Positions 1 to 54,875 of a DNA stretch of 64,000 bases are shown here, piece by piece. The position numbers and the translations under genes were made by a program. Within the stretch, counting starts at the first letter, position 1, and each line of letters opens with the position of its first letter. This DNA comes from Chloroflexota bacterium (lineage in GTDB: Bacteria; Chloroflexota; Dehalococcoidia; DSGV01). The stretch lies in the NCBI GenBank assembly GCA_021787985.1, contig JAJYLG010000009.1, positions 141-64,140 on the forward strand, read 5' to 3'. Below the pieces are notes generated by a model. That model saw only the letters and a program-made list of their open reading frames with translations, did no database searches and had not been told where the DNA came from.

Positions 1-1144
1 AGCGCTCGACGAGCGTCAGCCCGCGTTGCGTCCAGGCGAGCGCGGCGGCGGGGTCGCGCAGGCGGCGCTCGTGGAGCAGGGCGAGCCGCTCGTACGGCTC
101 GACGGAGCGGTTCGAGTCGTCGGCGGCCAGCGCCTGCCAGCTCCGCAGCGCCTCGTCCAGGTCGCCGGCGCGTTCAGCCGTGCGGGCGGCATGGCGGAGC
201 GCTTCCAGGTGGCCGTCCTCGGCCGCGCGCCGATAGCGTGCGCGTGCGTCGGCCACGGCGCCGCCGCGCTCGAGCCAGCGGCCGGCGGCGACCAGCCCGG
301 TCGCGGCGCCGCCGCCGTCGTCGAGCCGTCGCGCGAGGTGGGCCGCCAGACCGGCCAGGCCGACGATGTCGGCGCGGTTGTGACGGAACACGGGGACGAG
401 CGGGCGGAAGCGGCGTTCACGCTGGTAGCGGAAGTAGACGGAAGGGATGAGCGCGCCCGGCAGGTCGGCCTCACGCCGCAGCTCGAGCAGGCCAGACTCC
501 GCCTCAATCAGGCGCGCCGAGGGCAGCACGTGGCGGCAGAGCGCGCGCGTGGCGTGGAGCAGGTCGGCGTGCGGGAGCGCGGCCAGCCGGGTGCGGCGGC
601 GGCCGAGGACGAAGCGCGTCTCGAGCAGGGGCACGTCGAAGGCGCGGCCGTTGTAGGTCACCAGTGCCTCGACGCCCGCCAGCTCGTGCTCGACGGCGTC
701 GAGCAGCGCCTCCTCGTCCTCGAACGCGGGAAGGAAGACCTGACGGACGTGGAACCCGTCAGGGGCGAAACGGCCGATGCCGACCAGGAAGACGTAGACG
801 CCGGTGCCGCTGCCCAGACCGGTGGTCTCGGCGTCGAGGTAGGCGACACGCTCGGGCGCGACGTCCGCCAGGGCCGGGTCGCGCCCTAGGAGCGCGAGCG
901 CGGCGGGCGGCGGCGGGCGCAGCGGTGCGCGGCCGACGCGGGCGCGGCGCCGCGTCAGATGGTCGGTGACGAAGGCGCGGGCACCGCCGGACTCGAACCA
1001 CCAGCCGGGGAGGAGCGCGTCGAGCGGTGGCTCCGGCGCGCGCTCGAGCGGGGGGGCACGAAACGGGGCGCTCACGGGGACATCGGCGCCGCGCGAGCGG
1101 GCGATGATCTGGCGCAGGCGCTCGTGCAGGGCGGCGTCGCTCAC
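1..1144 (-). CDS. MrfB/YprB-like DnaQ-type 3'-5' exonuclease with C-terminal TPR-like repeats; partial, C-terminus lies beyond the window start; start approximate (possible GTG overlapping vapC stop)
   Basis: Minus-strand reading in the same codon register as the antisense + ORF 26..889 gives a clean protein with exo motifs VAYLDAETTGL (Exo I), YNGRAFDVPLLETRF (Exo II) and HADLLHATRAL (Exo III). TPR-like C-terminal text follows (DLDEALRSWQALAAD...ERLALLHERRLRDPAAALAWTQRGL). The six-frame track misses it because it runs off the window edge. It sits downstream of the DUF1998 helicase, as in the B. subtilis mrfAB pair. Confidence 0.6.
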   Translation of the reverse strand, partial: MSDAALHERLRQIIARSRGADVPVSAPFRAPPLERAPEPPLDALLPGWWFESGGARAFVTDHLTRRRARVGRAPLRPPPPAALALLGRDPALADVAPERVAYLDAETTGLGSGTGVYVFLVGIGRFAPDGFHVRQVFLPAFEDEEALLDAVEHELAGVEALVTYNGRAFDVPLLETRFVLGRRRTRLAALPHADLLHATRALCRHVLPSARLIEAESGLLELRREADLPGALIPSVYFRYQRERRFRPLVPVFRHNRADIVGLAGLAAHLARRLDDGGGAATGLVAAGRWLERGGAVADARARYRRAAEDGHLEALRHAARTAERAGDLDEALRSWQALAADDSNRSVEPYERLALLHERRLRDPAAALAWTQRGLTLVER

Positions 1145-1623
1145 CGGCCCGACCCCAGTGCGGCGAGGTCGAACGCCGGGTCGAACGGGTTGAGGAAGAG
1201 GACTCCTTCGAGCCAGCGGTTGTGGGCGAAGTCCTCGCTGAGGACCATCGGGATCTGGTTCAGCTTGGCGGTCGCCCAGATGAGCGCGTCCCAGATCGAG
1301 AGTTGGAACGTGTTTGCGCCACGGCATGCCTCCCACACCACCAGCGGGGTCAGCTCAAGGACGCGGCAGGCGCGCAGGCAACGGGCGACCTCTGCAAGGG
1401 CAGCGTCCGGGGCAAGTCTCAGCGGTTCCGGCAGTCTCCAGCGGACGGCGCGAAAGAACTCGGTCAGGCACTGGACGCTGAGGACGGCGTCGCGTCTCAA
1501 CACAAGGCGCTCCATCAAGCCCATCGCCTCTGCCTGCCGCACGTGGTCGCGCGGGTCGAAGAGGTAGACGAGTATGTTGGTGTCAACGAGCGCGGCGGCC
1601 AAAGCGGTCCTCGTAGAGCTCAT
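1141..1623 (-). CDS. vapC: PIN-domain toxin VapC
   Basis: N-terminal LVDTNILVYLFDPRD plus acidic residues typical of PIN. Overlaps the upstream RHH antitoxin gene. 160 aa. Confidence 0.75.
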   Translation of the reverse strand: MSSTRTALAAALVDTNILVYLFDPRDHVRQAEAMGLMERLVLRRDAVLSVQCLTEFFRAVRWRLPEPLRLAPDAALAEVARCLRACRVLELTPLVVWEACRGANTFQLSIWDALIWATAKLNQIPMVLSEDFAHNRWLEGVLFLNPFDPAFDLAALGSGR

Positions 1624-1906
1624 CCCGTGTCCAATTGCGGCCGGTCTGGGGCACTCCGATGTTCATGCGCTGCTCGATGTCCGCCTTCAGCTCTTCCCAT
1701 GCAGCGAGGCGGTCACGCTCGCGCAGCAGGGCGATCGCTTGCTCCACTTCTGAGCCCTCGGCGGGCGACTGAGGCTCGAGCACCAAGTGCTCGATCCCTT
1801 GGCGGACCAGCTCGGCCTCCGTCACGCCGAGCTCCCTCGCCCGTCGCTTCAGCAGCTCGTCCTGCCGGGGCTCGATGTAGAACTGCTTGCGCACCATGCG
1901 GGCCAT
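1583..1906 (-). CDS. vapB: Ribbon-helix-helix antitoxin (VapB/CopG-like)
   Basis: 107 aa; N-terminus MARMVRKQFYIEPRQDELLKRRARELGVTEAELVRQGIE is RHH-like. Immediately upstream of and overlapping the PIN gene. Confidence 0.7.
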   Translation of the reverse strand: MARMVRKQFYIEPRQDELLKRRARELGVTEAELVRQGIEHLVLEPQSPAEGSEVEQAIALLRERDRLAAWEELKADIEQRMNIGVPQTGRNWTRDELYEDRFGRRAR

Positions 1907-1951
1907 CGCACGCCTCCGGCGATATACATCGCACTATACATCGTACGCCGC

Positions 1952-4225
1952 TCACGCCCCGAACGTCCGTAGCGCGGCGACGATTCGCAGCGCGGCCGCG
2001 CGAGCGTCCGCCTCGGCCCGCGGCGGCGGGCCGACGCAGCCCGGGCAGCCATCCCGGCAGCCGCAATCGCGCAGCAGCTCATGTGCGGCCTCCAGCAGCG
2101 CCGCGCGCACCTCGAAGCAGCGCTCGGCCAGGCCCACGCCGCCGGGGTATGCCTCGTACAGGAAGACGGTCGGCAGCTCGGTAAACGGGCTGCGCACCTG
2201 CACGGACGTCTGCAGGTCGCGTGCGTCGCACAGCAGGAAGACCGGCGCGACGTTCACCAGCACGTTGGCCAGCCCCAGCAGACCGGCCTCGATCTCCGCG
2301 CGGGTCATCTCGGCGGTCGCGGCGGAGGGCAGCGCCAGCCAGTAGGCCCGCGTTTGCATCTCGTCCTGCGGCAGGGCGATCGTGCCCCAGCCCACGTTCT
2401 CGTGGGTGAACAGCCGCACCTTCTTGAAGATGGTGGCCAGATAGGTCACCGTGACGCCGCCGTGCGCGTGCTCGCAGGCGGCGCTCTCGGCCCGGCCGTC
2501 CTCGTGCAGCACTCTGAGGTCGACGGCGAGCTGGGCGTCGGTGTAGTGGTCCACCTCCACCGGATGCACGTACGCTTTCAGCTCGTCCCAGGCGAGCCGG
2601 TCCACGTGGTACTGGCGGCCGCCGTGGTAGTAGATCGCGTCCTCGTGCACCAGCAACGGCGCGGAGGCCCGGTCCACCTCGCCGATGACGCGCGCCGGCG
2701 GGCCGTGGTCGATGATCACCACGTTCTGGGTGCTGGCGCTGCGCAGCGACACGCCCTCCGCCGGGAAGGACTCGGCCGACCAGAAGTAGCGGTCGCCGCG
2801 GCGGACGAGGATGCCCGCCTCGGCGAGCGCCGCGCAGATGTGCGCCACCGCGGGCCCGAGCTGCTCGCCGTCCCGGAACGGCAGCTCGAAAGCCGCGCAC
2901 TTGACGTGCTCGACCAGGATCTCGAGGTTGTCCGGGTCGATGCGGCCCGCCTCGGCCGGCCGCTCGAAGAGGAAGTCGGGGTGCGTGGCGACGTACTGGT
3001 CGAGCGGGCCGGAGCCAGCCACGAGCACGGCAAGCGACGCCCCCTGCCGCCGGCCCGCGCGGCCGAAGCGCTGCCAGGTGCCGCTCACCGACCCCGGGTA
3101 GCGGCAGCAGACGACCGCGTCCATGCTGCCCACGTCGATGCCGAGCTCGAGCGCGTTCGTGGCCACGACCGTCCGCAGCCGGCCGTTGCGCAGGTCGCGT
3201 TCGATGGCCCGCCGCTCCTTTGGCAGGTAGCCGGCGCGGTAGCCCTCGATCGCCGATCCTGCCGCGGAGGGACGTGCGCGCTCGCCGCGGCGGAGGTAGG
3301 TCACCAGCAGCTCGACCTCCTGCCGGCTCTGCGCGAAGCAGAGCACCTGCGCGCCGGCACCGGAGAGGTCGCGTGTCAGCCGTCGTGCGGCGTGGAGGGG
3401 GCTGCGGCGAATGCCGAGCTCGCGGTTGACCACCGGCGGGTTGTACACGGCCACGGTCCGCGGGCCGCGCGGCGCGCCGCTCTCCTCCACCACCTGGACC
3501 GGCCGGCCGAGCAGCCGCTCGGCCAGATCGCCGGGGTTGCCGATAGTGGCCGAGCTGCAGATGAAGACCGGCTCCGACCCGTAGAACCGCGCGACGCGCA
3601 GCAGCCGCCGCAGCACGTTGGCGACGTGCGAACCGAAGACGCCGCGATACTGGTGCAGCTCGTCGACGACCACGTAGCGCAGGTTCTCGAACAGGGAGAG
3701 CCACTTGGTGTGGTGCGGCAGGATGCCGGTGTGCAGCATGTCGGGGTTGGTGATGACCACGTGCCCGGCCTGGCGGACCGCGCGGCGGGCGTCGGCCGGC
3801 GTGTCGCCGTCGTAGGTGAAGGCGCGCAGGGCGCTGCCGAGCGCATCGACGATCGCCTGCAGCTCGGCGAGCTGGTCTTGCGCCAGCGCCTTGGTGGGGA
3901 AGAGGAAGAGAGCGCGGGACGCGGGGTCATCGAGCACGGCCTGCGCGACGGGCGCCTGGTAGCAGAGCGACTTGCCCGAGGCGGTGGGCGTGGCGACGAC
4001 GACGTCGCGACCCGCCAGCACGGCCGCGATCGCGGTGGCCTGGTGCGTGTACGGGCGTTCGATGCCGCGGGCGGCCAGGGCGCGGCGCAGCGGCTCACCG
4101 ACTCCGGCTGGCCAATCGGCGAGGCAGGCCGGCTCGGGCGGGAGCTCGCGCCAGCAGGTGAAGCCGCGGGCGCGTCGCGGGTCGTCGCGGAGGGCGGCGA
4201 GGGCGTCGGGCGGGAGCATGGGCAC
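1952..4225 (-). CDS. DEAD/DEAH-box helicase with C-terminal DUF1998/MZB zinc-finger domain (MrfA/YprA/Hrq1-like)
   Basis: 757 aa. Walker A TPTASGKSLCYQ; DEAH-type box VVVDELHQYRG; helicase C-terminal motifs; C-terminal Cys cluster CGCRDGCPGC typical of DUF1998. Confidence 0.85.
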   Translation of the reverse strand: MPMLPPDALAALRDDPRRARGFTCWRELPPEPACLADWPAGVGEPLRRALAARGIERPYTHQATAIAAVLAGRDVVVATPTASGKSLCYQAPVAQAVLDDPASRALFLFPTKALAQDQLAELQAIVDALGSALRAFTYDGDTPADARRAVRQAGHVVITNPDMLHTGILPHHTKWLSLFENLRYVVVDELHQYRGVFGSHVANVLRRLLRVARFYGSEPVFICSSATIGNPGDLAERLLGRPVQVVEESGAPRGPRTVAVYNPPVVNRELGIRRSPLHAARRLTRDLSGAGAQVLCFAQSRQEVELLVTYLRRGERARPSAAGSAIEGYRAGYLPKERRAIERDLRNGRLRTVVATNALELGIDVGSMDAVVCCRYPGSVSGTWQRFGRAGRRQGASLAVLVAGSGPLDQYVATHPDFLFERPAEAGRIDPDNLEILVEHVKCAAFELPFRDGEQLGPAVAHICAALAEAGILVRRGDRYFWSAESFPAEGVSLRSASTQNVVIIDHGPPARVIGEVDRASAPLLVHEDAIYYHGGRQYHVDRLAWDELKAYVHPVEVDHYTDAQLAVDLRVLHEDGRAESAACEHAHGGVTVTYLATIFKKVRLFTHENVGWGTIALPQDEMQTRAYWLALPSAATAEMTRAEIEAGLLGLANVLVNVAPVFLLCDARDLQTSVQVRSPFTELPTVFLYEAYPGGVGLAERCFEVRAALLEAAHELLRDCGCRDGCPGCVGPPPRAEADARAAALRIVAALRTFGA

Positions 4226-4340
4226 CGCCGCACATCTGTTCTAACGCTCCTCATAGTAGGCGCCGCCGCGAGCGGACGCAACGGGCGCCGGAGGGCGCGG
4301 CGTCCATGGAACTCCCGCCCTGCGGGGTCGTGGCCTGCCT

Positions 4341-7104: not shown

Positions 7105-7593
7105 TCAGCGCGCGCCGTTCGCGGCCGCCTCGACCTTCCCCGCTTCGACCGTCTGGCCGACCTTGACCTGGATCTGCTTCGGCCGTGCGGCCTCCAGCGT
7201 GGGCAGGCGCAGCTTCAGGACGCCGTGCTCGTAGTTCGCCTCGATGTGCTCGACGTCGACGGTGGTCGGCAGGGCGATGCTGCGCACGAAGCTTCCGTAG
7301 CGCCGCTCGTGGCGGTAGTAGCGCTCGCGCTCGACCTCCTCGGCCTGCTTGAACTCACCCTGGATGGTGAGCACGCCGTTCTCGACGGTGATCTTGATGT
7401 CCTCGGGTCGGACGCCGGGGATGGGGGCCGTCACCCAGAGCGCGTCGTCCTTCTCATAGACATCGAGCGGGATGAAGCTCTCCGCCTCGAAGAGGCGCAA
7501 CGGGCGCCAGAACGGCTCGTCGAGCACGCGCTCCATGGCGCGACGCATGTGGCCGAGCTCCGCGAATGGGTCCCAGCGGATGAGATCAGGCAT
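7105..7593 (-). CDS. Hsp20/alpha-crystallin small heat-shock protein
   Basis: 162 aa; alpha-crystallin domain text (DVYEKDDALWVTAPIPGVRPEDIKITVENGVLTIQGE...GSFVRSIALP). Confidence 0.85.
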   Translation of the reverse strand: MPDLIRWDPFAELGHMRRAMERVLDEPFWRPLRLFEAESFIPLDVYEKDDALWVTAPIPGVRPEDIKITVENGVLTIQGEFKQAEEVERERYYRHERRYGSFVRSIALPTTVDVEHIEANYEHGVLKLRLPTLEAARPKQIQVKVGQTVEAGKVEAAANGAR

Positions 7594-7791
7594 GGTGGTA
7601 CCTCCTTGAGCGTTGTGGCCGGGCGGAAGGCCTTCCCGGCATTTCCACTTCTCGGTCTGGAGGATAGCAGGGACCAGGAGTGTCTGTCAAGGTACTTGAT
7701 AATGACGACATCAGGGTTCTACCATTAGGTCAGCGCAAATCCCTGGCGGCTCGCGCGGTCGCGTGCTAGGCTGCCGGCAGGGGGTGGGGCG

Positions 7792-8769
7792 ATGCCCCGC
7801 GACTACTACGAGGTCTTGGGCCTTTCGAAACGGGCCACCGAGCGCGAGGTCCGGCAGGCGTTTCGCAAGCTGGCGCGACGCTACCACCCCGACGTGAACC
7901 CCAGTAACCGCGATGCCGAGGCCCGTTTCAAGGAGATCAACGCTGCCCACGAAGTCCTCTCCGACCCGGAGAAGCGCGCCAAGTACGACAAGTACGGCGA
8001 CCGCTGGGAGCAGGCCGACCTCATCGAGGAAGCACGCCGCCAGCGCGAGCAGCAGCGCACCTGGACGCGCGGACCCTTTGCCGAGCCGGGCGCCAATGGC
8101 GAGGCCGCCGACTTCGCTTCGCTTTTCGGTCAGATGTTCCGTGCCCGCCGGCCGCAGCGCGGACAGGACATCGAGTACCCGCTCGAGATCACGCTCGAAG
8201 AGGCTTACAGCGGCACGCTGCGGATGCTACAGCTCGCCGGCGGAGCGACCTGTACCACCTGTCTGGGCAGCGGTCACACCGCGGCCGGCCGTTGCGCCGA
8301 TTGCGGTGGCTCGGGCTACCAGGAGCGCCCGCGGCGGCTCGAGGTCAAGATCCCGGCCGGCATCCGTGGCGGCGGCCGCGTACGCGTGGCCGGCGAGGGA
8401 CAGCCGGGCGTCGTCGGCGGTCCGCCGGGCGACCTCTACCTGGTCGTTACCGTGCGCGACCACGACCGCTTCGAGCGCAAGGGTGACGACCTGCACACGG
8501 ACGTGAACGTGCCGTTCCTGCAGGCGGTGCTGGGCGGGGAGGCGTCCGTGCAGGGGATGAAGTCGCGGCTCGCCCTGACCATCCCCCCACTGACTCAGAA
8601 CGGTCAGGTGTTCCGCCTGCAGGGCCAGGGAATGCCGCGGCTGGGCGGCCGCGGGCACGGTGACCTGTACGCCCGCGTCCGCATCGCGTTGCCGACCCAC
8701 CTCTCGCCCGAAGAGCGGCGGCTGTTCGAGGAGCTGCGCGCGCTGCAGCAAGGGGCGGGCGTACGGTGA
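7792..8769 (+). CDS. DnaJ-class co-chaperone (CbpA-like; J domain, reduced Zn-finger region, C-terminal domains)
   Basis: J domain DYYEVLGLSKRATEREVRQAFRKLARRYHPDVNP with HPD. Two CxxCxGxG repeats only. 325 aa. Confidence 0.8.
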   Translation: MPRDYYEVLGLSKRATEREVRQAFRKLARRYHPDVNPSNRDAEARFKEINAAHEVLSDPEKRAKYDKYGDRWEQADLIEEARRQREQQRTWTRGPFAEPGANGEAADFASLFGQMFRARRPQRGQDIEYPLEITLEEAYSGTLRMLQLAGGATCTTCLGSGHTAAGRCADCGGSGYQERPRRLEVKIPAGIRGGGRVRVAGEGQPGVVGGPPGDLYLVVTVRDHDRFERKGDDLHTDVNVPFLQAVLGGEASVQGMKSRLALTIPPLTQNGQVFRLQGQGMPRLGGRGHGDLYARVRIALPTHLSPEERRLFEELRALQQGAGVR

Positions 8770-8794
8770 GCCGACAGACGGCCGGTGACTCGCG

Positions 8795-9166
8795 ATGACC
8801 TCGCAACGGGATGACCTGCCCGCCGGCGTCAACGCCGACGAGCCGTGCTACGTGATCTCGGTGGCGGCGCGCATCTTGGGCGTGCACCAGCAGACGCTGC
8901 GCTACTACGAGCGGGCCGGCCTCGTCCGCCCGTCGCGCTCGCGTGGCAATCTCCGCCTGTACTCGCGGCAGGACGTGGACCGCGTGCGACACATCAAGCA
9001 ACTGATGGATGACCTCGGCGTGAATCTGGCCGGAGTCGAAGTGATCCTGCGAATGCGCCAGCGGATCGATGAGCTCGAAGCCGAGCTGGCCGAGCTGCGC
9101 GACCAGCTCCGTGACCTGCTGTGGCCCGAGCCGCCGCAGCTCGCGCCGCCGGCCGAGCGCCCCTGA
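8795..9166 (+). CDS. hspR: MerR-family heat-shock repressor HspR
   Basis: YVISVAARILGVHQQTLRYYERAGLVRPSRSRGNLRLYSRQDVDRVRHIKQLMDDLGVNLAGVEVIL matches HspR/CbpM family. Directly downstream of the dnaJ-like gene. Confidence 0.75.
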   Translation: MTSQRDDLPAGVNADEPCYVISVAARILGVHQQTLRYYERAGLVRPSRSRGNLRLYSRQDVDRVRHIKQLMDDLGVNLAGVEVILRMRQRIDELEAELAELRDQLRDLLWPEPPQLAPPAERP

Positions 9167-53739: not shown

Positions 53740-54717
53740 TCAGGCCGGGCAGAAGGCCGATGCCAGAGCCGCGTCCGGCGGACGGGCGGGCAAGGTCGGC
53801 GGGCGGTGGGCGACGGCGGCGAGGAGTCCGGGCAGGCGTAGCTGCCCGGGTTGGGAGCGGTCGTCCTCAGTCCAGCGGTCGTCGAGAGCGAAACGGCGCT
53901 TGAGCTCGTCGATCTCGCGCTGCACCTGGGCACGGTAGCGCGGCGGCGCGTACGCGTGGTCGTAGAGGCGGGCGTAGAGCGGCAGCAGGTGCGGGTAGTG
54001 GATGGCGAGCGCGTCGAAGAAGGCCTGGCGCGTCGCGGGCTGCAAGAACAGGGCATTGGCGGCGACGAAGGACGCGCCGTGGTCGCGAGCCGCGCGCACG
54101 ACCTGCTCGAGCGTGGCCGGATCGTCGTTGATGCCGGGCATGACCGGCGCCATCAGCACGCCCGCGCGGACGCCGGCTTTCGCTAGCTGCTCCAACGCGC
54201 CGAGGCGCTTCCAGGGTGGGGCGGTCGAAGGCTCGATCCGCCGCCAGCGGTCGCGGTCGAGGAAGCTCACGCTGAAGTTGACGGTGAGCGGCGCCTGACG
54301 CCCAAGCTCCTGCAGGATGTCGCGATCGCGCAGGATGAACGGGGACTTGGTGACGATGCTGGTCGGGTTGGCGTGGCGGACCAGGACCGCGAGGCAGCGA
54401 CGGGTGAGCCGGTAGTGGAGCTCGGCCGGCTGGTAGGGGTCGCAGGCGGTGCCGACCGCGATCAGCTCGCGCCGCCAGCTTCGGCGGGAGAGGTCGCGAT
54501 GCAACGCCTCGGGGGCGTTGACCTTGACCTCGACCAGCCCGGCGAAGTCGGCCGACGGGTCGTAGCCGAGCAGGGCGTAGCTGGAGCGGGCGAAGCAGTA
54601 GGCGCAGTCGTGCTGGCAGCCGCGGTACGGGTTGGCGGACCAGCGAAACGGCAGCGGCCCCCGCACGCGATTGAGGAGCGTGCGGCAGGCGGTTTCCACG
54701 AGCTGCGGTGGCGGCAT
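53740..54717 (-). CDS. Radical SAM protein (SplB/DNA-photolyase-like COG1533 family)
   Basis: CQHDCAYC (CxxxCxxC) cluster motif; 325 aa. Confidence 0.75.
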   Translation of the reverse strand: MPPPQLVETACRTLLNRVRGPLPFRWSANPYRGCQHDCAYCFARSSYALLGYDPSADFAGLVEVKVNAPEALHRDLSRRSWRRELIAVGTACDPYQPAELHYRLTRRCLAVLVRHANPTSIVTKSPFILRDRDILQELGRQAPLTVNFSVSFLDRDRWRRIEPSTAPPWKRLGALEQLAKAGVRAGVLMAPVMPGINDDPATLEQVVRAARDHGASFVAANALFLQPATRQAFFDALAIHYPHLLPLYARLYDHAYAPPRYRAQVQREIDELKRRFALDDRWTEDDRSQPGQLRLPGLLAAVAHRPPTLPARPPDAALASAFCPA

Positions 54718-54875
54718 GAGCGACCCCCTCTGCGGATAACAGAACAGATGTTCTGTTCGCTGTCAAGTCGCCTCCTCCCGGCCGTACCTGGAGGCTGCCG
54801 CGCCGCGGGACGGGATTCCGTCCGCCAAAGGATGAACCCCATCAGCCGCAGTGGGTCGGCGTGCGACGCGGGTCG

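What the first reader, a model, noticed from the sequence alone, without database searches (positions are those of the whole stretch)
1..4225. MrfA-like helicase and MrfB-like exonuclease separated by an inserted VapBC module
The DUF1998 DEAH helicase (1952..4225) and the DnaQ-type exonuclease with TPR tail (1..about 1144) resemble the B. subtilis mrfAB (yprAB) mitomycin-adduct repair pair. The exonuclease is missed by the ORF track because it runs off the window edge. Here a complete RHH-PIN toxin-antitoxin pair lies between them on the same strand. The vapC stop appears to overlap the exonuclease start. A TA module embedded inside a DNA-repair two-gene unit is unusual. It could stabilise the locus or co-regulate it.
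Basis: partly seen in the sequence, partly recalled or inferred. Interest (0 to 1): 0.55.

Follow-up and report, generated by a model that had tools for sequence, protein, structure and literature searches.

The report
Toxin-antitoxin cassette splitting a DNA-repair operon
A normal two-gene DNA-repair unit (MrfA helicase and MrfB exonuclease) in an uncultured high-GC Chloroflexota-like bacterium has a small, intact VapBC toxin-antitoxin cassette, with its own control sequence, inserted exactly at the junction of the two genes; this is a real but fairly ordinary one-off insertion.

Summary
On the minus strand lie mrfA (1952-4225), vapB (1583-1906, RHH), vapC (1141-1602, PIN) and the first 381 codons of mrfB (1-1144). 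mrfA matches B. subtilis YprA/MrfA end to end (E=5e-250). mrfB matches the MrfB exonuclease core (E=4e-28) and keeps all DEDDh residues. A near-identical metagenome contig completes mrfB at 430 aa. The vapC stop and mrfB start overlap as GTGA.

The TA pair is a lineage-specific insertion. Of 160 mrfA relatives, 129 have mrfB directly downstream and none has a VapBC homologue. The whole 808-nt gap is homologous to free-standing VapBC cassettes from unrelated sites. Its GC content is 66%, against 73-77% in the flanking genes.

The cassette carries a family-conserved tandem repeat (GATGTATA-N4-GATGTATA, 1923-1946) that contains a -10-like hexamer. This is probably its autoregulated promoter and operator.

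mrfA is preceded by a one-mismatch LexA-type box. Perfect boxes occur upstream of mrfA in 46 of 156 relatives.

The most likely layout therefore mirrors E. coli dinB-yafNOP. A damage-responsive promoter reads through all four genes, and an internal antitoxin-controlled promoter also drives mrfB. This transcription model is inferred, not shown. Interest is modest.

The parts
4230..4241 (-). LexA-type (Cheo-box-like) site GAACAGATGTGC, one mismatch from GAAC-N4-GTTC, 5-16 nt upstream of the mrfA start
   Evidence: It shares its left half and spacer with the only perfect box in the window, GAACAGATGTTC at 54742. Perfect boxes lie within 200 nt upstream of mrfA in 46 of 156 relatives, at 1.65/kb against 0.0099/kb background. 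Function in this genome is inferred.
4253..4281 (-). Candidate mrfA promoter, TTGCGT-17 nt-TACTAT (weak match to consensus)
   Evidence: Read directly from the sequence. It falls below the threshold of the consensus scan. Inference only.
1952..4225 (-). mrfA (yprA-type) SF2 DExH helicase with a C-terminal Zn-binding MZB/DUF1998 domain
   Evidence: Pfam DEAD, Helicase_C, WHD_HRQ1 and MZB. PDB 6ZNP YprA, E=5e-250, over residues 9-734. GKS and DELH motifs and all four Cys are aligned.
1923..1946 (-). Tandem 12-nt repeat GTACGATGTATA / GTGCGATGTATA: probable VapB operator, containing a -10-like TATAGT (1938-1933). A GGAGG ribosome-binding site follows at 1917-1913.
   Evidence: Repeat family D10. 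The motif is unique in 64 kb with 0 expected by chance. The same tandem motif sits 13-30 nt upstream of vapB in 9 of 10 homologous cassettes at unrelated loci, and the sequence further upstream is not conserved.
1583..1906 (-). vapB, ribbon-helix-helix antitoxin (107 aa)
   Evidence: Pfam RHH_3. The N-terminal RHH motif and the C-terminal VPQTGRxWTRDELYE motif are shared with homologues. It overlaps vapC by 20 nt, as in homologous cassettes.
1141..1602 (-). vapC, PIN-domain toxin (153 aa from TTG 1602)
   Evidence: Pfam PIN, E=8e-13. There are 692 homologues at 55-67% identity. The acidic residues D7, E48, D105 and E123/D124 are invariant, and the C-terminus has the native length.
1141..1144 (-). 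GTGA overlap: the mrfB start GTG (1144-1142) shares bases with the vapC stop TGA (1143-1141)
   Evidence: The gene caller chose the same start. Homologue N-termini (LRxKLxRL motif) align from this start.
1..1144 (-). mrfB (yprB-type) DEDDh 3'-5' exonuclease, first 381 of 430 codons; the gene runs off the window
   Evidence: RNase_H_2, E=4e-29. PDB 8UN9 MrfB, E=3.7e-28. D104, E106, D170, H255 and D259 are invariant in the alignment. The full gene is at L001:10763-12055.
1946..1955 (-). Left copy (GTGAGCGGCG) of a 9/10 direct repeat that spans the mrfA stop. The right copy (GTGAGCGACG, 1135-1144) spans the vapC stop and mrfB start. Possibly a duplicated ancestral mrfA-stop/mrfB-start overlap.
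   Evidence: Read from the junction sequences. The repeat finder did not report it. Weak evidence: it could be chance in 73% GC DNA.

Best explanation
This is an ordinary mrfA-mrfB (yprAB-type) helicase/exonuclease excision-repair operon in a sparsely sampled, high-GC bacterium that is probably Chloroflexota. A self-contained 0.8-kb VapBC type II toxin-antitoxin cassette has inserted exactly at the junction of the two genes.

Shown:
- All four genes are intact and keep their catalytic and signature residues.
- The cassette fills the whole gap between the mrfA stop and the mrfB start.
- The cassette carries a family-conserved tandem repeat that contains a -10-like hexamer.
- No terminator-like structure separates any of the four genes.
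- The vapC stop overlaps the mrfB start.

Inferred:
- Two promoters transcribe the unit, as in E. coli dinB-yafNOP.
- The first is a promoter upstream of mrfA, bearing a slightly degenerate LexA-type box, which reads through mrfA-vapB-vapC-mrfB after DNA damage.
- The second is an internal promoter in front of vapB. The VapB or VapBC complex represses it by binding the tandem repeats, and it also drives mrfB.
- mrfB translation, which in relatives is coupled to mrfA, is now coupled to termination at vapC.
- The cassette itself is most likely a selfish addiction module that landed there and persists. As a side effect, mrfB expression is tied to TA autoregulation.
For: - Gene identities.
- Completion of mrfB from a near-identical contig.
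- Insertion. Of 160 relatives, 129 have mrfB immediately downstream, 0 have VapB or VapC homologues, and the largest other gaps are about 800 nt.
- Cassette extent. blastn homology to cassettes at unrelated loci starts 7-11 nt after the mrfA stop and runs to the vapC stop.
- Composition. The cassette is 66.2% GC with GC3 of 83-85%, against 73-77% GC and GC3 of 92-94% in mrfA and mrfB.
- Mobility. Homologous cassettes sit in varied, unrelated contexts.
- Operator/promoter. The tandem GATGTATA motif is conserved upstream of vapB in 9 of 10 cassettes and is unique in the window.
- No terminator or significant hairpin lies between mrfA and vapB (z = -0.39).
- GTGA overlap.
- LexA-type boxes are enriched about 170-fold upstream of mrfA in relatives, and the window has a one-mismatch box in the same place.
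- Precedent. yafNO is transcribed both from the SOS-regulated dinB promoter and from its own antitoxin-autoregulated promoter (PMC2814082, read).
Against: - There are no transcript data, so both promoters are inferred. The consensus scan found no sigma-70-like promoter anywhere in the region.
- The LexA-type box has a mismatch in the conserved GTTC half. About 14 one-mismatch sites are expected by chance per 64 kb.
- No relative closer than 62% identity exists in the collections searched. An 'empty site' in a sister genome could therefore not be shown, and the insertion cannot be dated.
- The GC dip is moderate: it lies in the lowest 4% of same-sized windows.
- Toxicity of VapC and neutralisation by VapB are untested.
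Confidence: 0.72

Rival explanations
1. Functional recruitment. This VapBC family has been co-opted into damage-inducible (LexA-controlled) operons as a DNA-damage-triggered brake on translation and growth. It would act together with repair enzymes rather than as a mere hitch-hiker. DNA damage raises transcription and/or depletes the labile antitoxin, and the freed VapC RNase pauses growth while MrfAB (or ImuB/DnaE2) act.
For: - Two orthologous loci (L163, L164; their IMS proteins are 75% identical) carry cassettes of the same VapC family (62-65% identical) immediately downstream of an imuB-like Y-family polymerase gene. That gene is preceded by a -35/LexA-box/-10 promoter. In L164 the cassette lies between imuB and dnaE2.
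- So 2 independent placements out of about 10 distinct contexts are inside LexA-box operons.
- mrfA carries LexA-type boxes in many relatives.
- E. coli has several SOS-induced toxins, including yafNO in the dinB operon.
Against: - Eight other contexts of the family are unrelated to DNA repair. They lie next to gyrA (divergent), NrtR, a phosphodiesterase, prophage-like genes, cytochrome c biogenesis genes, kinases and an epimerase.
- The association was noticed post hoc in a very small sample.
- None of the 135 relatives with mrfAB has the cassette, so it is not needed for MrfAB function.
Confidence: 0.12
2. The TA pair is a decaying or inactive remnant that merely separates the two repair genes. 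Its only effect, if any, is polar.
For: Chromosomal TA modules often decay. No activity data exist. The VapB here has a 13-18 residue longer linker than its closest relatives.
Against: - Both ORFs are full length with native termini.
- All invariant PIN acidic residues and both conserved VapB motifs are retained.
- The two operator repeats have identical 8-nt cores (GATGTATA), and the 12-nt units match at 11 of 12 positions.
Confidence: 0.1
3. The four genes form a composite anti-phage defence system built around a YprA-family helicase (as in DISARM, Druantia, Dpd or ARMADA), with PIN and DEDDh nucleases as effectors.
For: [quoted passage not shown] PADLOC models for BrxHI, SngC, DruE and DpdF hit the helicase core.
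Against: - The PADLOC hits cover only the generic helicase core (about residues 60-400) at up to 163 bits. The full-length match to repair MrfA scores 835 bits.
- The partner gene is MrfB, which marks the repair branch of the family.
- VapB, VapC and MrfB hit no defence model.
- No defence partner genes flank the locus; the neighbours are housekeeping and heat-shock genes.
- The TA pair is absent from all relatives.
Confidence: 0.03
4. The arrangement is ancestral to a deep, unsampled lineage, and vapBC and mrfB are transcribed independently of mrfA. In that case mrfAB no longer functions as a unit here.
For: No genome closer than 62% identity is available, so the age of the arrangement is unknown. 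The cassette has its own promoter-like element.
Against: - Adjacency of mrfA and mrfB is the rule across Chloroflexota, Bacillota and other phyla.
- The cassette still has lower GC and GC3 than its flanks.
- No terminator follows mrfA.
Confidence: 0.05

Closest known systems
Bacillus subtilis mrfAB (yprAB) mitomycin C excision-repair pair
   Same: - The helicase aligns end to end with YprA/MrfA (PDB 6ZNP), including the GKS and DExH motifs and the four Zn-binding cysteines.
- The exonuclease matches the MrfB core (PDB 8UN9), with all DEDDh residues, the conserved N-terminal LRxKLxRL motif and a homologous C-terminal region.
- Both genes are on the same strand, helicase first.
   Different: - The two genes are 808 nt apart instead of abutting or overlapping, with a TA cassette between them.
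- mrfB is translationally coupled to vapC, not to mrfA.
- A LexA-type box-like site precedes mrfA.
- Substrate specificity (mitomycin C adducts) is unknown here. The B. subtilis work found that distant homologues do not cross-complement.
Escherichia coli dinB-yafN-yafO-yafP operon (an SOS-regulated type II TA inside a DNA-damage operon)
   Same: - A type II TA pair sits downstream of, and on the same strand as, a DNA-damage-response gene and is followed by a further gene of the operon.
- The TA pair has its own antitoxin-autoregulated promoter in addition to read-through from the upstream damage-inducible promoter. This is shown experimentally for yafNO (PMC2814082) and inferred here.
   Different: - The TA family differs: RelE-like YafO with YafN there, PIN with RHH here.
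- The repair genes differ: Pol IV there, MrfA/MrfB here.
- Here the TA pair splits two proteins reported to work as partners.
- Nothing has been tested experimentally here.
VapBC (PIN toxin with RHH antitoxin) chromosomal type II toxin-antitoxin modules
   Same: - Antitoxin-first gene order with a 20-nt gene overlap.
- An RHH DNA-binding domain.
- A PIN domain with conserved acidic residues.
- Repeats overlapping a -10-like element upstream.
- Scattered, context-independent genomic distribution.
   Different: - This subfamily is remote from solved VapCs (best PDB E=0.02-0.05), falls far below the NCBIfam VapC cutoff and matches no PADLOC model.
- Its operator is a tandem direct repeat, GATGTATA-N4-GATGTATA.
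- Its RNA target is unknown.

Membership tests
MrfA / YprA repair helicase (criteria of Burby & Simmons, quoted) | DExH-box SF2 helicase core with motifs I and II | tested here: met
   Pfam DEAD, E=1e-32, and Helicase_C, E=4e-16. TPTASGKS and DELH align with B. subtilis YprA.
MrfA / YprA repair helicase | C-terminal DUF1998/MZB domain with four conserved cysteines | tested here: met
   Pfam MZB, E=5e-20, residues 652-731. CgCrdgCpgC aligns with CpChdgCpsC of 6ZNP.
MrfA / YprA repair helicase | Full-length collinearity with the characterised protein, placing it in the repair branch rather than a defence branch | tested here: met
   6ZNP E=5e-250, query 9-734 against chain 8-733. Defence models hit only the helicase core, at up to 163 bits.
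MrfA / YprA repair helicase | Confers resistance to mitomycin C; 3'-5' helicase activity | not testable with these tools
   Needs genetics and biochemistry.
MrfB / YprB exonuclease | DEDDh catalytic residues conserved (the homologue criterion) | tested here: met
   D104, E106, D170, H255 and D259 are invariant in alignment A2. They align with the B. subtilis MrfB core, 8UN9, E=3.7e-28.
MrfB / YprB exonuclease | C-terminal TPR domain | tested here: inconclusive
   The protein's own Pfam TPR_6 hit is not significant (E=0.61). Its C-terminal region aligns with that of Bacillaceae and other MrfB homologues. Of these, one reaches Pfam's TPR cutoff (L049, TPR_14, 25.3 bits against 23.5) and others give weak TPR hits. 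The last 49 residues lie outside the window.
MrfB / YprB exonuclease | Encoded immediately downstream of mrfA in one operon | tested here: not met
   It is on the same strand and downstream, but separated by the 808-nt VapBC cassette. In 129 of 160 relatives the genes abut. Co-transcription is not testable here.
VapBC type II toxin-antitoxin | PIN-domain toxin with conserved acidic active-site residues | tested here: met
   Pfam PIN, E=8e-13. D7, E48, D105 and E123/D124 are invariant among 12 family members.
VapBC type II toxin-antitoxin | Upstream, overlapping antitoxin gene with a DNA-binding domain | tested here: met
   RHH_3, 23.1 bits against a cutoff of 21.6. The 20-nt overlap with vapC is the same architecture seen in all homologous cassettes.
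VapBC type II toxin-antitoxin | Operator repeats at its own promoter (autoregulation) | tested here: inconclusive
   A conserved tandem repeat with an embedded -10-like hexamer lies upstream of vapB in 9 of 10 cassettes. Binding and repression were not tested.
VapBC type II toxin-antitoxin | Toxin arrests growth and the antitoxin neutralises it | not testable with these tools
   Needs expression experiments.
LexA (SOS) regulon, Gram-positive/Chloroflexota-type box GAAC-N4-GTTC | LexA box in the promoter region | tested here: inconclusive
   A one-mismatch box lies at 4241-4230. Perfect boxes occur upstream of mrfA in 46 of 156 relatives. That this motif is the LexA box in Chloroflexota rests on my recollection of published work on Dehalococcoides, not on a tool result.
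YprA-helicase defence systems (DISARM, Druantia, Dpd, ARMADA and others) | Signature partner genes and helicase inserts | tested here: not met
   The PADLOC models DrmA, DruE and DpdF/J match only the helicase, and only its generic core. None of the five proteins scanned matched any other component of those systems. The called neighbours are housekeeping and heat-shock genes by their precomputed Pfam families.

The most novel reading that the evidence does not exclude
This VapBC subfamily, recognisable by its GATGTATA tandem operator, is repeatedly captured inside LexA-controlled DNA-damage operons: here between mrfA and mrfB, and elsewhere between imuB and dnaE2. There it would act as a damage-induced RNase 'pause button' that coordinates growth arrest with repair or mutagenesis. 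This would be a Chloroflexota counterpart of the SOS-induced toxins of E. coli. It would also imply that mrfAB is an SOS regulon member in Chloroflexota and related phyla.
Probability: 0.12. Interest if true: 0.55.

Novelty: new variant of a known kind. Interest (0 to 1): 0.3.

Why it matters
For the locus itself the value is mainly annotation. The left-edge gene is mrfB, the operon is mrfAB, and the two small genes are a mobile VapBC cassette rather than repair factors.

If the two-promoter model is right, mrfB expression here depends on TA autoregulation and on translation of the toxin gene. That would be a natural experiment on how tightly MrfA and MrfB need to be co-expressed.

Two by-products may interest DNA-repair researchers:
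- Strong enrichment of LexA-type boxes upstream of mrfA in Chloroflexota and several other phyla. This suggests mrfAB is damage-inducible there. I found no paper in the searched library describing this.
- A second placement of the same TA family inside an imuB-dnaE2 SOS cassette.

Neither changes current understanding of TA systems or of MrfAB.

Tried and rejected
- **Exact look-up of the 757-aa helicase.** It found nothing because the gene caller used a start two codons downstream. The antitoxin look-up succeeded instead.
- **Search for closer relatives with an empty site.** The genome and metagenome scans returned nothing above 62% and 58% identity. All four proteins are singletons at 90% identity. 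The insertion could therefore not be dated.
- **Longer mrfB start.** The frame stays open 210 nt further upstream (first start at window 1336, giving 494 aa). I rejected it because homologue N-termini align from the GTG at 1144 and the gene caller agrees.
- **ATG 1623 as the vapC start.** Rejected in favour of TTG 1602, based on homologue N-termini.
- **Phage carriage of the cassette.** No relatives were found in the viral contig collection, although one homologue sits beside terminase- and HNH-like genes.
- **Defence-system reading.** PADLOC hits cover only the generic helicase core.
- **Structured RNA or terminators in the region.** There were no Rfam hits. The mrfA-vapB spacer has no significant fold. 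The only terminator-like hairpin lies inside the mrfB coding sequence and is at chance frequency.
- **Consensus sigma-70 promoter scan.** It found nothing, so the promoter assignments rest on conserved -10-like hexamers only.
- **Target-site duplication.** A 9/10 repeat, GTGAGCGRCG, occurs at both junctions. It is too short to trust in 73% GC DNA, and the repeat finder did not report it.
- **Paralogues in the window.** There are no further copies of this TA family in the 64 kb.

Full report
**1. What is in the sequence**

The window is about 71% GC, so spurious long ORFs occur on both strands of 1-4225. Only the minus-strand set has database support.

- **Helicase, 1952-4225.** Pfam finds DEAD, Helicase_C, WHD_HRQ1 and MZB (the former DUF1998). 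It aligns over residues 9-734 with B. subtilis YprA/MrfA (PDB 6ZNP, E=5e-250). The aligned features include TPTASGKS, DELH and the four Zn-binding cysteines.
- **Antitoxin, 1583-1906.** A 107-aa ribbon-helix-helix protein (RHH_3, just above Pfam's cutoff).
- **Toxin, 1141-1602.** A 153-aa PIN protein. The start at TTG 1602, rather than ATG 1623, follows from homologue N-termini and an independent gene call.
- **Exonuclease, 2-1144.** The ORF tool omits the left-edge frame because it runs off the window. Translating it gives 381 aa with an RNase_H_2 domain (E=4e-29). It matches the crystallised core of B. subtilis MrfB (PDB 8UN9, E=3.7e-28).
- **Overlap.** The mrfB start GTG (1144-1142) and the vapC stop TGA (1143-1141) form GTGA.

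**2. Completing the edge gene**

The antitoxin sequence occurs on a 76.5-kb ENA metagenome contig (L001) and a 3.7-kb Logan contig (L002). L001 differs from the window at 1 of 9500 positions compared, and L002 is identical over 3745 nt.

On L001 mrfB is 430 aa, so 49 codons lie beyond the window. A Nudix gene follows 54 nt downstream.

In an alignment with nine homologues from Chloroflexota and Bacillota, the DEDDh residues (D104, E106, D170, H255, D259) are invariant. The N-terminal LRxKLxRL motif begins six residues after the GTG, which supports that start.

The C-terminal third aligns with the corresponding region of Bacillaceae MrfB. One of those proteins reaches Pfam's TPR threshold and several give weak TPR hits. 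This protein's own TPR hit is not significant. B. subtilis MrfB is described as an exonuclease core plus a three-repeat TPR domain (PMC11194089). The 'TPR tail' is therefore plausible by homology but not independently shown.

**3. Is the TA pair an insertion?**

I collected 80 genome and 80 metagenome loci encoding the closest helicase relatives (46-62% identity). The named ones are mostly Chloroflexota/Dehalococcoidia and Bacillota.

| Arrangement downstream of mrfA | Loci (of 160) |
|---|---|
| mrfB frame open to within 250 nt of the mrfA stop, same strand | 129 |
| No mrfB ('YprA only') | 12 |
| Contig truncated | 13 |
| Gap larger than 250 nt (350-800 nt) | 6 |

None of the 160 has a detectable VapB or VapC homologue.

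The six larger gaps contain:
- a PD-(D/E)XK (PDDEXK_3) gene with low GC in L145 and L147;
- two Rdx-family ORFs in L019;
- repeat-rich, ORF-less DNA in L007, L142 and L156.

The junction is thus occasionally invaded by small elements, but a TA pair is seen only here.

The cassette is 66.2% GC with GC3 of 83-85%, against 73-77% GC and GC3 of 92-94% for mrfA and mrfB. That places it in the lowest 4% of same-sized windows.

The VapC has 692 homologues at 55-67% identity, and the few that carry a name are from Dehalococcoidia/Chloroflexi MAGs.

In the 11 distinct contexts I could read, the vapBC pair sits as a stand-alone two-gene cassette in unrelated neighbourhoods. blastn homology between the window's cassette and these copies starts 7-11 nt after the mrfA stop and runs to the vapC stop. 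The entire 808-nt gap is therefore cassette and nothing else.

VapC ends where its homologues end, and its acidic PIN residues are invariant. VapB keeps both conserved motifs. I conclude that this is an intact mobile VapBC cassette inserted precisely at the mrfA/mrfB junction.

A 9/10 direct repeat (GTGAGCGRCG) spans the mrfA stop on one side and the vapC-stop/mrfB-start on the other. This would fit duplication of an ancestral GTGA overlap. It is too short to be trusted in such GC-rich DNA.

No genome closer than 62% identity is available, and all four proteins are singletons at 90% identity among about 15 billion sequences. An empty site could not be shown.

**4. Regulatory signals**

*The mrfA-vapB spacer.* The 45-nt spacer contains a tandem 12-nt repeat, GTACGATGTATA/GTGCGATGTATA (1946-1923), followed by GGAGG and the ATG.
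- The motif is unique in the 64 kb, with zero expected by chance.
- The same tandem motif (consensus CGATGTATAATGCGATGTATA) lies 13-30 nt upstream of vapB in 9 of 10 homologous cassettes. Sequence further upstream is unrelated.
- The first repeat contains a -10-like hexamer: TATAAT in several copies, TATAGT here.

This is the expected look of an RHH-antitoxin operator overlapping the cassette's own promoter, but binding is untested.

*Terminators.* There is no terminator-like hairpin and no significant fold between mrfA and vapB (z = -0.39). There is no room for one between vapC and mrfB.

*Upstream of mrfA.* The sequence GAACAGATGTGC (4241-4230) lies 5-16 nt before the start codon. It is one mismatch from GAAC-N4-GTTC. 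From memory, that is the Gram-positive-type LexA box also reported for Dehalococcoides.
- One-mismatch sites are common (22 observed, 14.5 expected per window), so this site alone is weak evidence.
- Perfect boxes occur within 200 nt upstream of mrfA in 46 of 156 relatives, often in pairs. The density is 1.65/kb against 0.0099/kb elsewhere in the same loci.
- The only perfect box in the window (AACAGAACAGATGTTCTGTT, 54739-54758) has the same left half and spacer. It sits just upstream of a radical-SAM gene.

*Most likely model (inferred).* mrfA-vapB-vapC-mrfB is read from a damage-responsive promoter upstream of mrfA. An internal, VapB/VapBC-repressed promoter drives vapB-vapC-mrfB. mrfB translation is coupled to vapC termination. 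This is the experimentally established logic of E. coli dinB-yafNOP, where yafNO is transcribed both from the SOS-regulated dinB promoter and from its own antitoxin-autoregulated promoter (PMC2814082).

**5. Rival explanations**

*Functional recruitment.* Two orthologous loci (L163, L164; their IMS proteins are 75% identical) carry a cassette of this same family directly downstream of an imuB-like polymerase gene. That gene has a textbook -35/LexA-box/-10 promoter. In L164 the cassette lies between imuB and dnaE2, next to a second, unrelated MazE-PIN pair. Together with the window, that makes two independent placements inside LexA-box operons among about ten contexts. This is suggestive, but it was noticed post hoc in a tiny sample, and the other eight contexts are unrelated to repair. 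I give it about 0.12.

*Defence system.* This is disfavoured. PADLOC hits cover only the generic helicase core, at up to 163 bits against 835 bits for MrfA. MrfB marks the repair branch of the YprA family (preprint 10.1101/2025.09.15.676423). The other three proteins hit no defence model, and the neighbours are housekeeping and heat-shock genes.

*Inactive remnant or ancestral arrangement.* Neither can be excluded, but the intact residues and the phyletic pattern argue against both.

**6. Comparison with what is known, and verdict**

By the published homologue criteria, both flanking genes qualify as MrfA and MrfB. [quoted passage not shown] The only family trait not met is immediate adjacency.

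The small genes are a typical, if divergent, VapBC module. They have no close solved structure and score far below the NCBIfam VapC cutoff.

The composite has not been described in the papers I could search. It is, however, a variation on a known theme: a type II TA embedded in a damage-response operon.

The finding is real but of modest interest (0.3). The side observations may be more useful than the insertion itself. These are the LexA-type boxes upstream of mrfA across many relatives, and the same TA family inside an imuB-dnaE2 cassette.

Noticed in passing
Loci L005, L007, L009, L010, L012-L015 and others (46 of 156 mrfA relatives); window 4230-4241: Perfect GAAC-N4-GTTC (LexA/Cheo-type) boxes, often two, lie within 200 nt upstream of mrfA. 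The named loci are mostly Chloroflexota (Dehalococcoidia, Limnocylindria, Thermomicrobiales), with a few Bacillota and one Dormibacterota. This is about 170-fold above the background density of the same loci, and none of the Bacillus or Priestia loci has one. It suggests mrfAB is SOS-regulated in these phyla. I found no paper in the library describing this.
   Followed up: partly
L164:2439-5611 and L163:2495-4456: The same VapBC family (62-65% identical VapC, same tandem operator) sits directly after an imuB-like Y-family polymerase gene that has a -35/LexA-box/-10 promoter. In L164 it lies between imuB and dnaE2, together with a second, opposite-strand MazE-PIN pair. The imuB-dnaE2 spacer thus holds two TA cassettes.
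   Followed up: partly
window 54739-54758 and 53740-54717(-): The only perfect LexA-type box in the 64 kb is an extended palindrome, AACAGAACAGATGTTCTGTT. It lies about 20 nt upstream of a 325-aa radical-SAM gene, which from memory resembles the SplB-like 'DNA repair photolyase' group. This is probably a genuine SOS gene of this organism.
   Followed up: partly
L145:8516-8893, L147:4031-4408, L019:6767-7293, L007:10331-10829, L142:4317-4679, L156:8367-8720: Other small elements occasionally occupy the mrfA/mrfB junction in relatives. These are a low-GC PD-(D/E)XK (PDDEXK_3) gene, two tandem Rdx-family ORFs, and repeat-rich ORF-less DNA. The junction seems to tolerate insertions.
   Followed up: partly
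L001:12110-12610 (just beyond the left edge of the window): A 166-aa Nudix hydrolase gene follows mrfB by 54 nt on the same strand. It weakly matches a PADLOC candidate family (PDC-S07). No homologue of it was found downstream of mrfB in the relatives, apart from one weak hit in L105.
   Followed up: no
window 1135-1144 and 1946-1955: A 9/10 direct repeat, GTGAGCGRCG, occurs at both ends of the cassette and spans the stop/start codons. It may be a duplicated ancestral mrfA-stop/mrfB-start overlap, or it may be chance.
   Followed up: partly
window 739-763(-): A 10-bp hairpin followed by a T-rich tail (CCTGACGGGTTCCACGTCCGTCAGG TCTTCCTTCC) lies inside the mrfB coding sequence. The count is at the chance level for the scan (1 found, 0.9 expected).
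   Followed up: no
window 1144-1336(-): The mrfB reading frame stays open 210 nt upstream of its start, inside vapC in another frame. The alternative start at 1336 would give 494 aa. I judged this an artefact of high GC, because homologue N-termini align from GTG 1144.
   Followed up: yes
window 7105-9166 and onward (L001:1-4802): A heat-shock cluster lies a few kb from the locus: hsp20, then dnaJ, a MerR/HspR-like regulator, a PCMT methyltransferase and clpB. The hsp20 region has a local GC dip (about 65%).
   Followed up: no
whole locus: MrfA, VapB, VapC and MrfB are each singletons at 90% identity in a collection of about 15 billion proteins. The locus was found on only two assemblies (ENA ERZ27233565, Logan SRR13170411). 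The lineage is very poorly sampled.
   Followed up: yes
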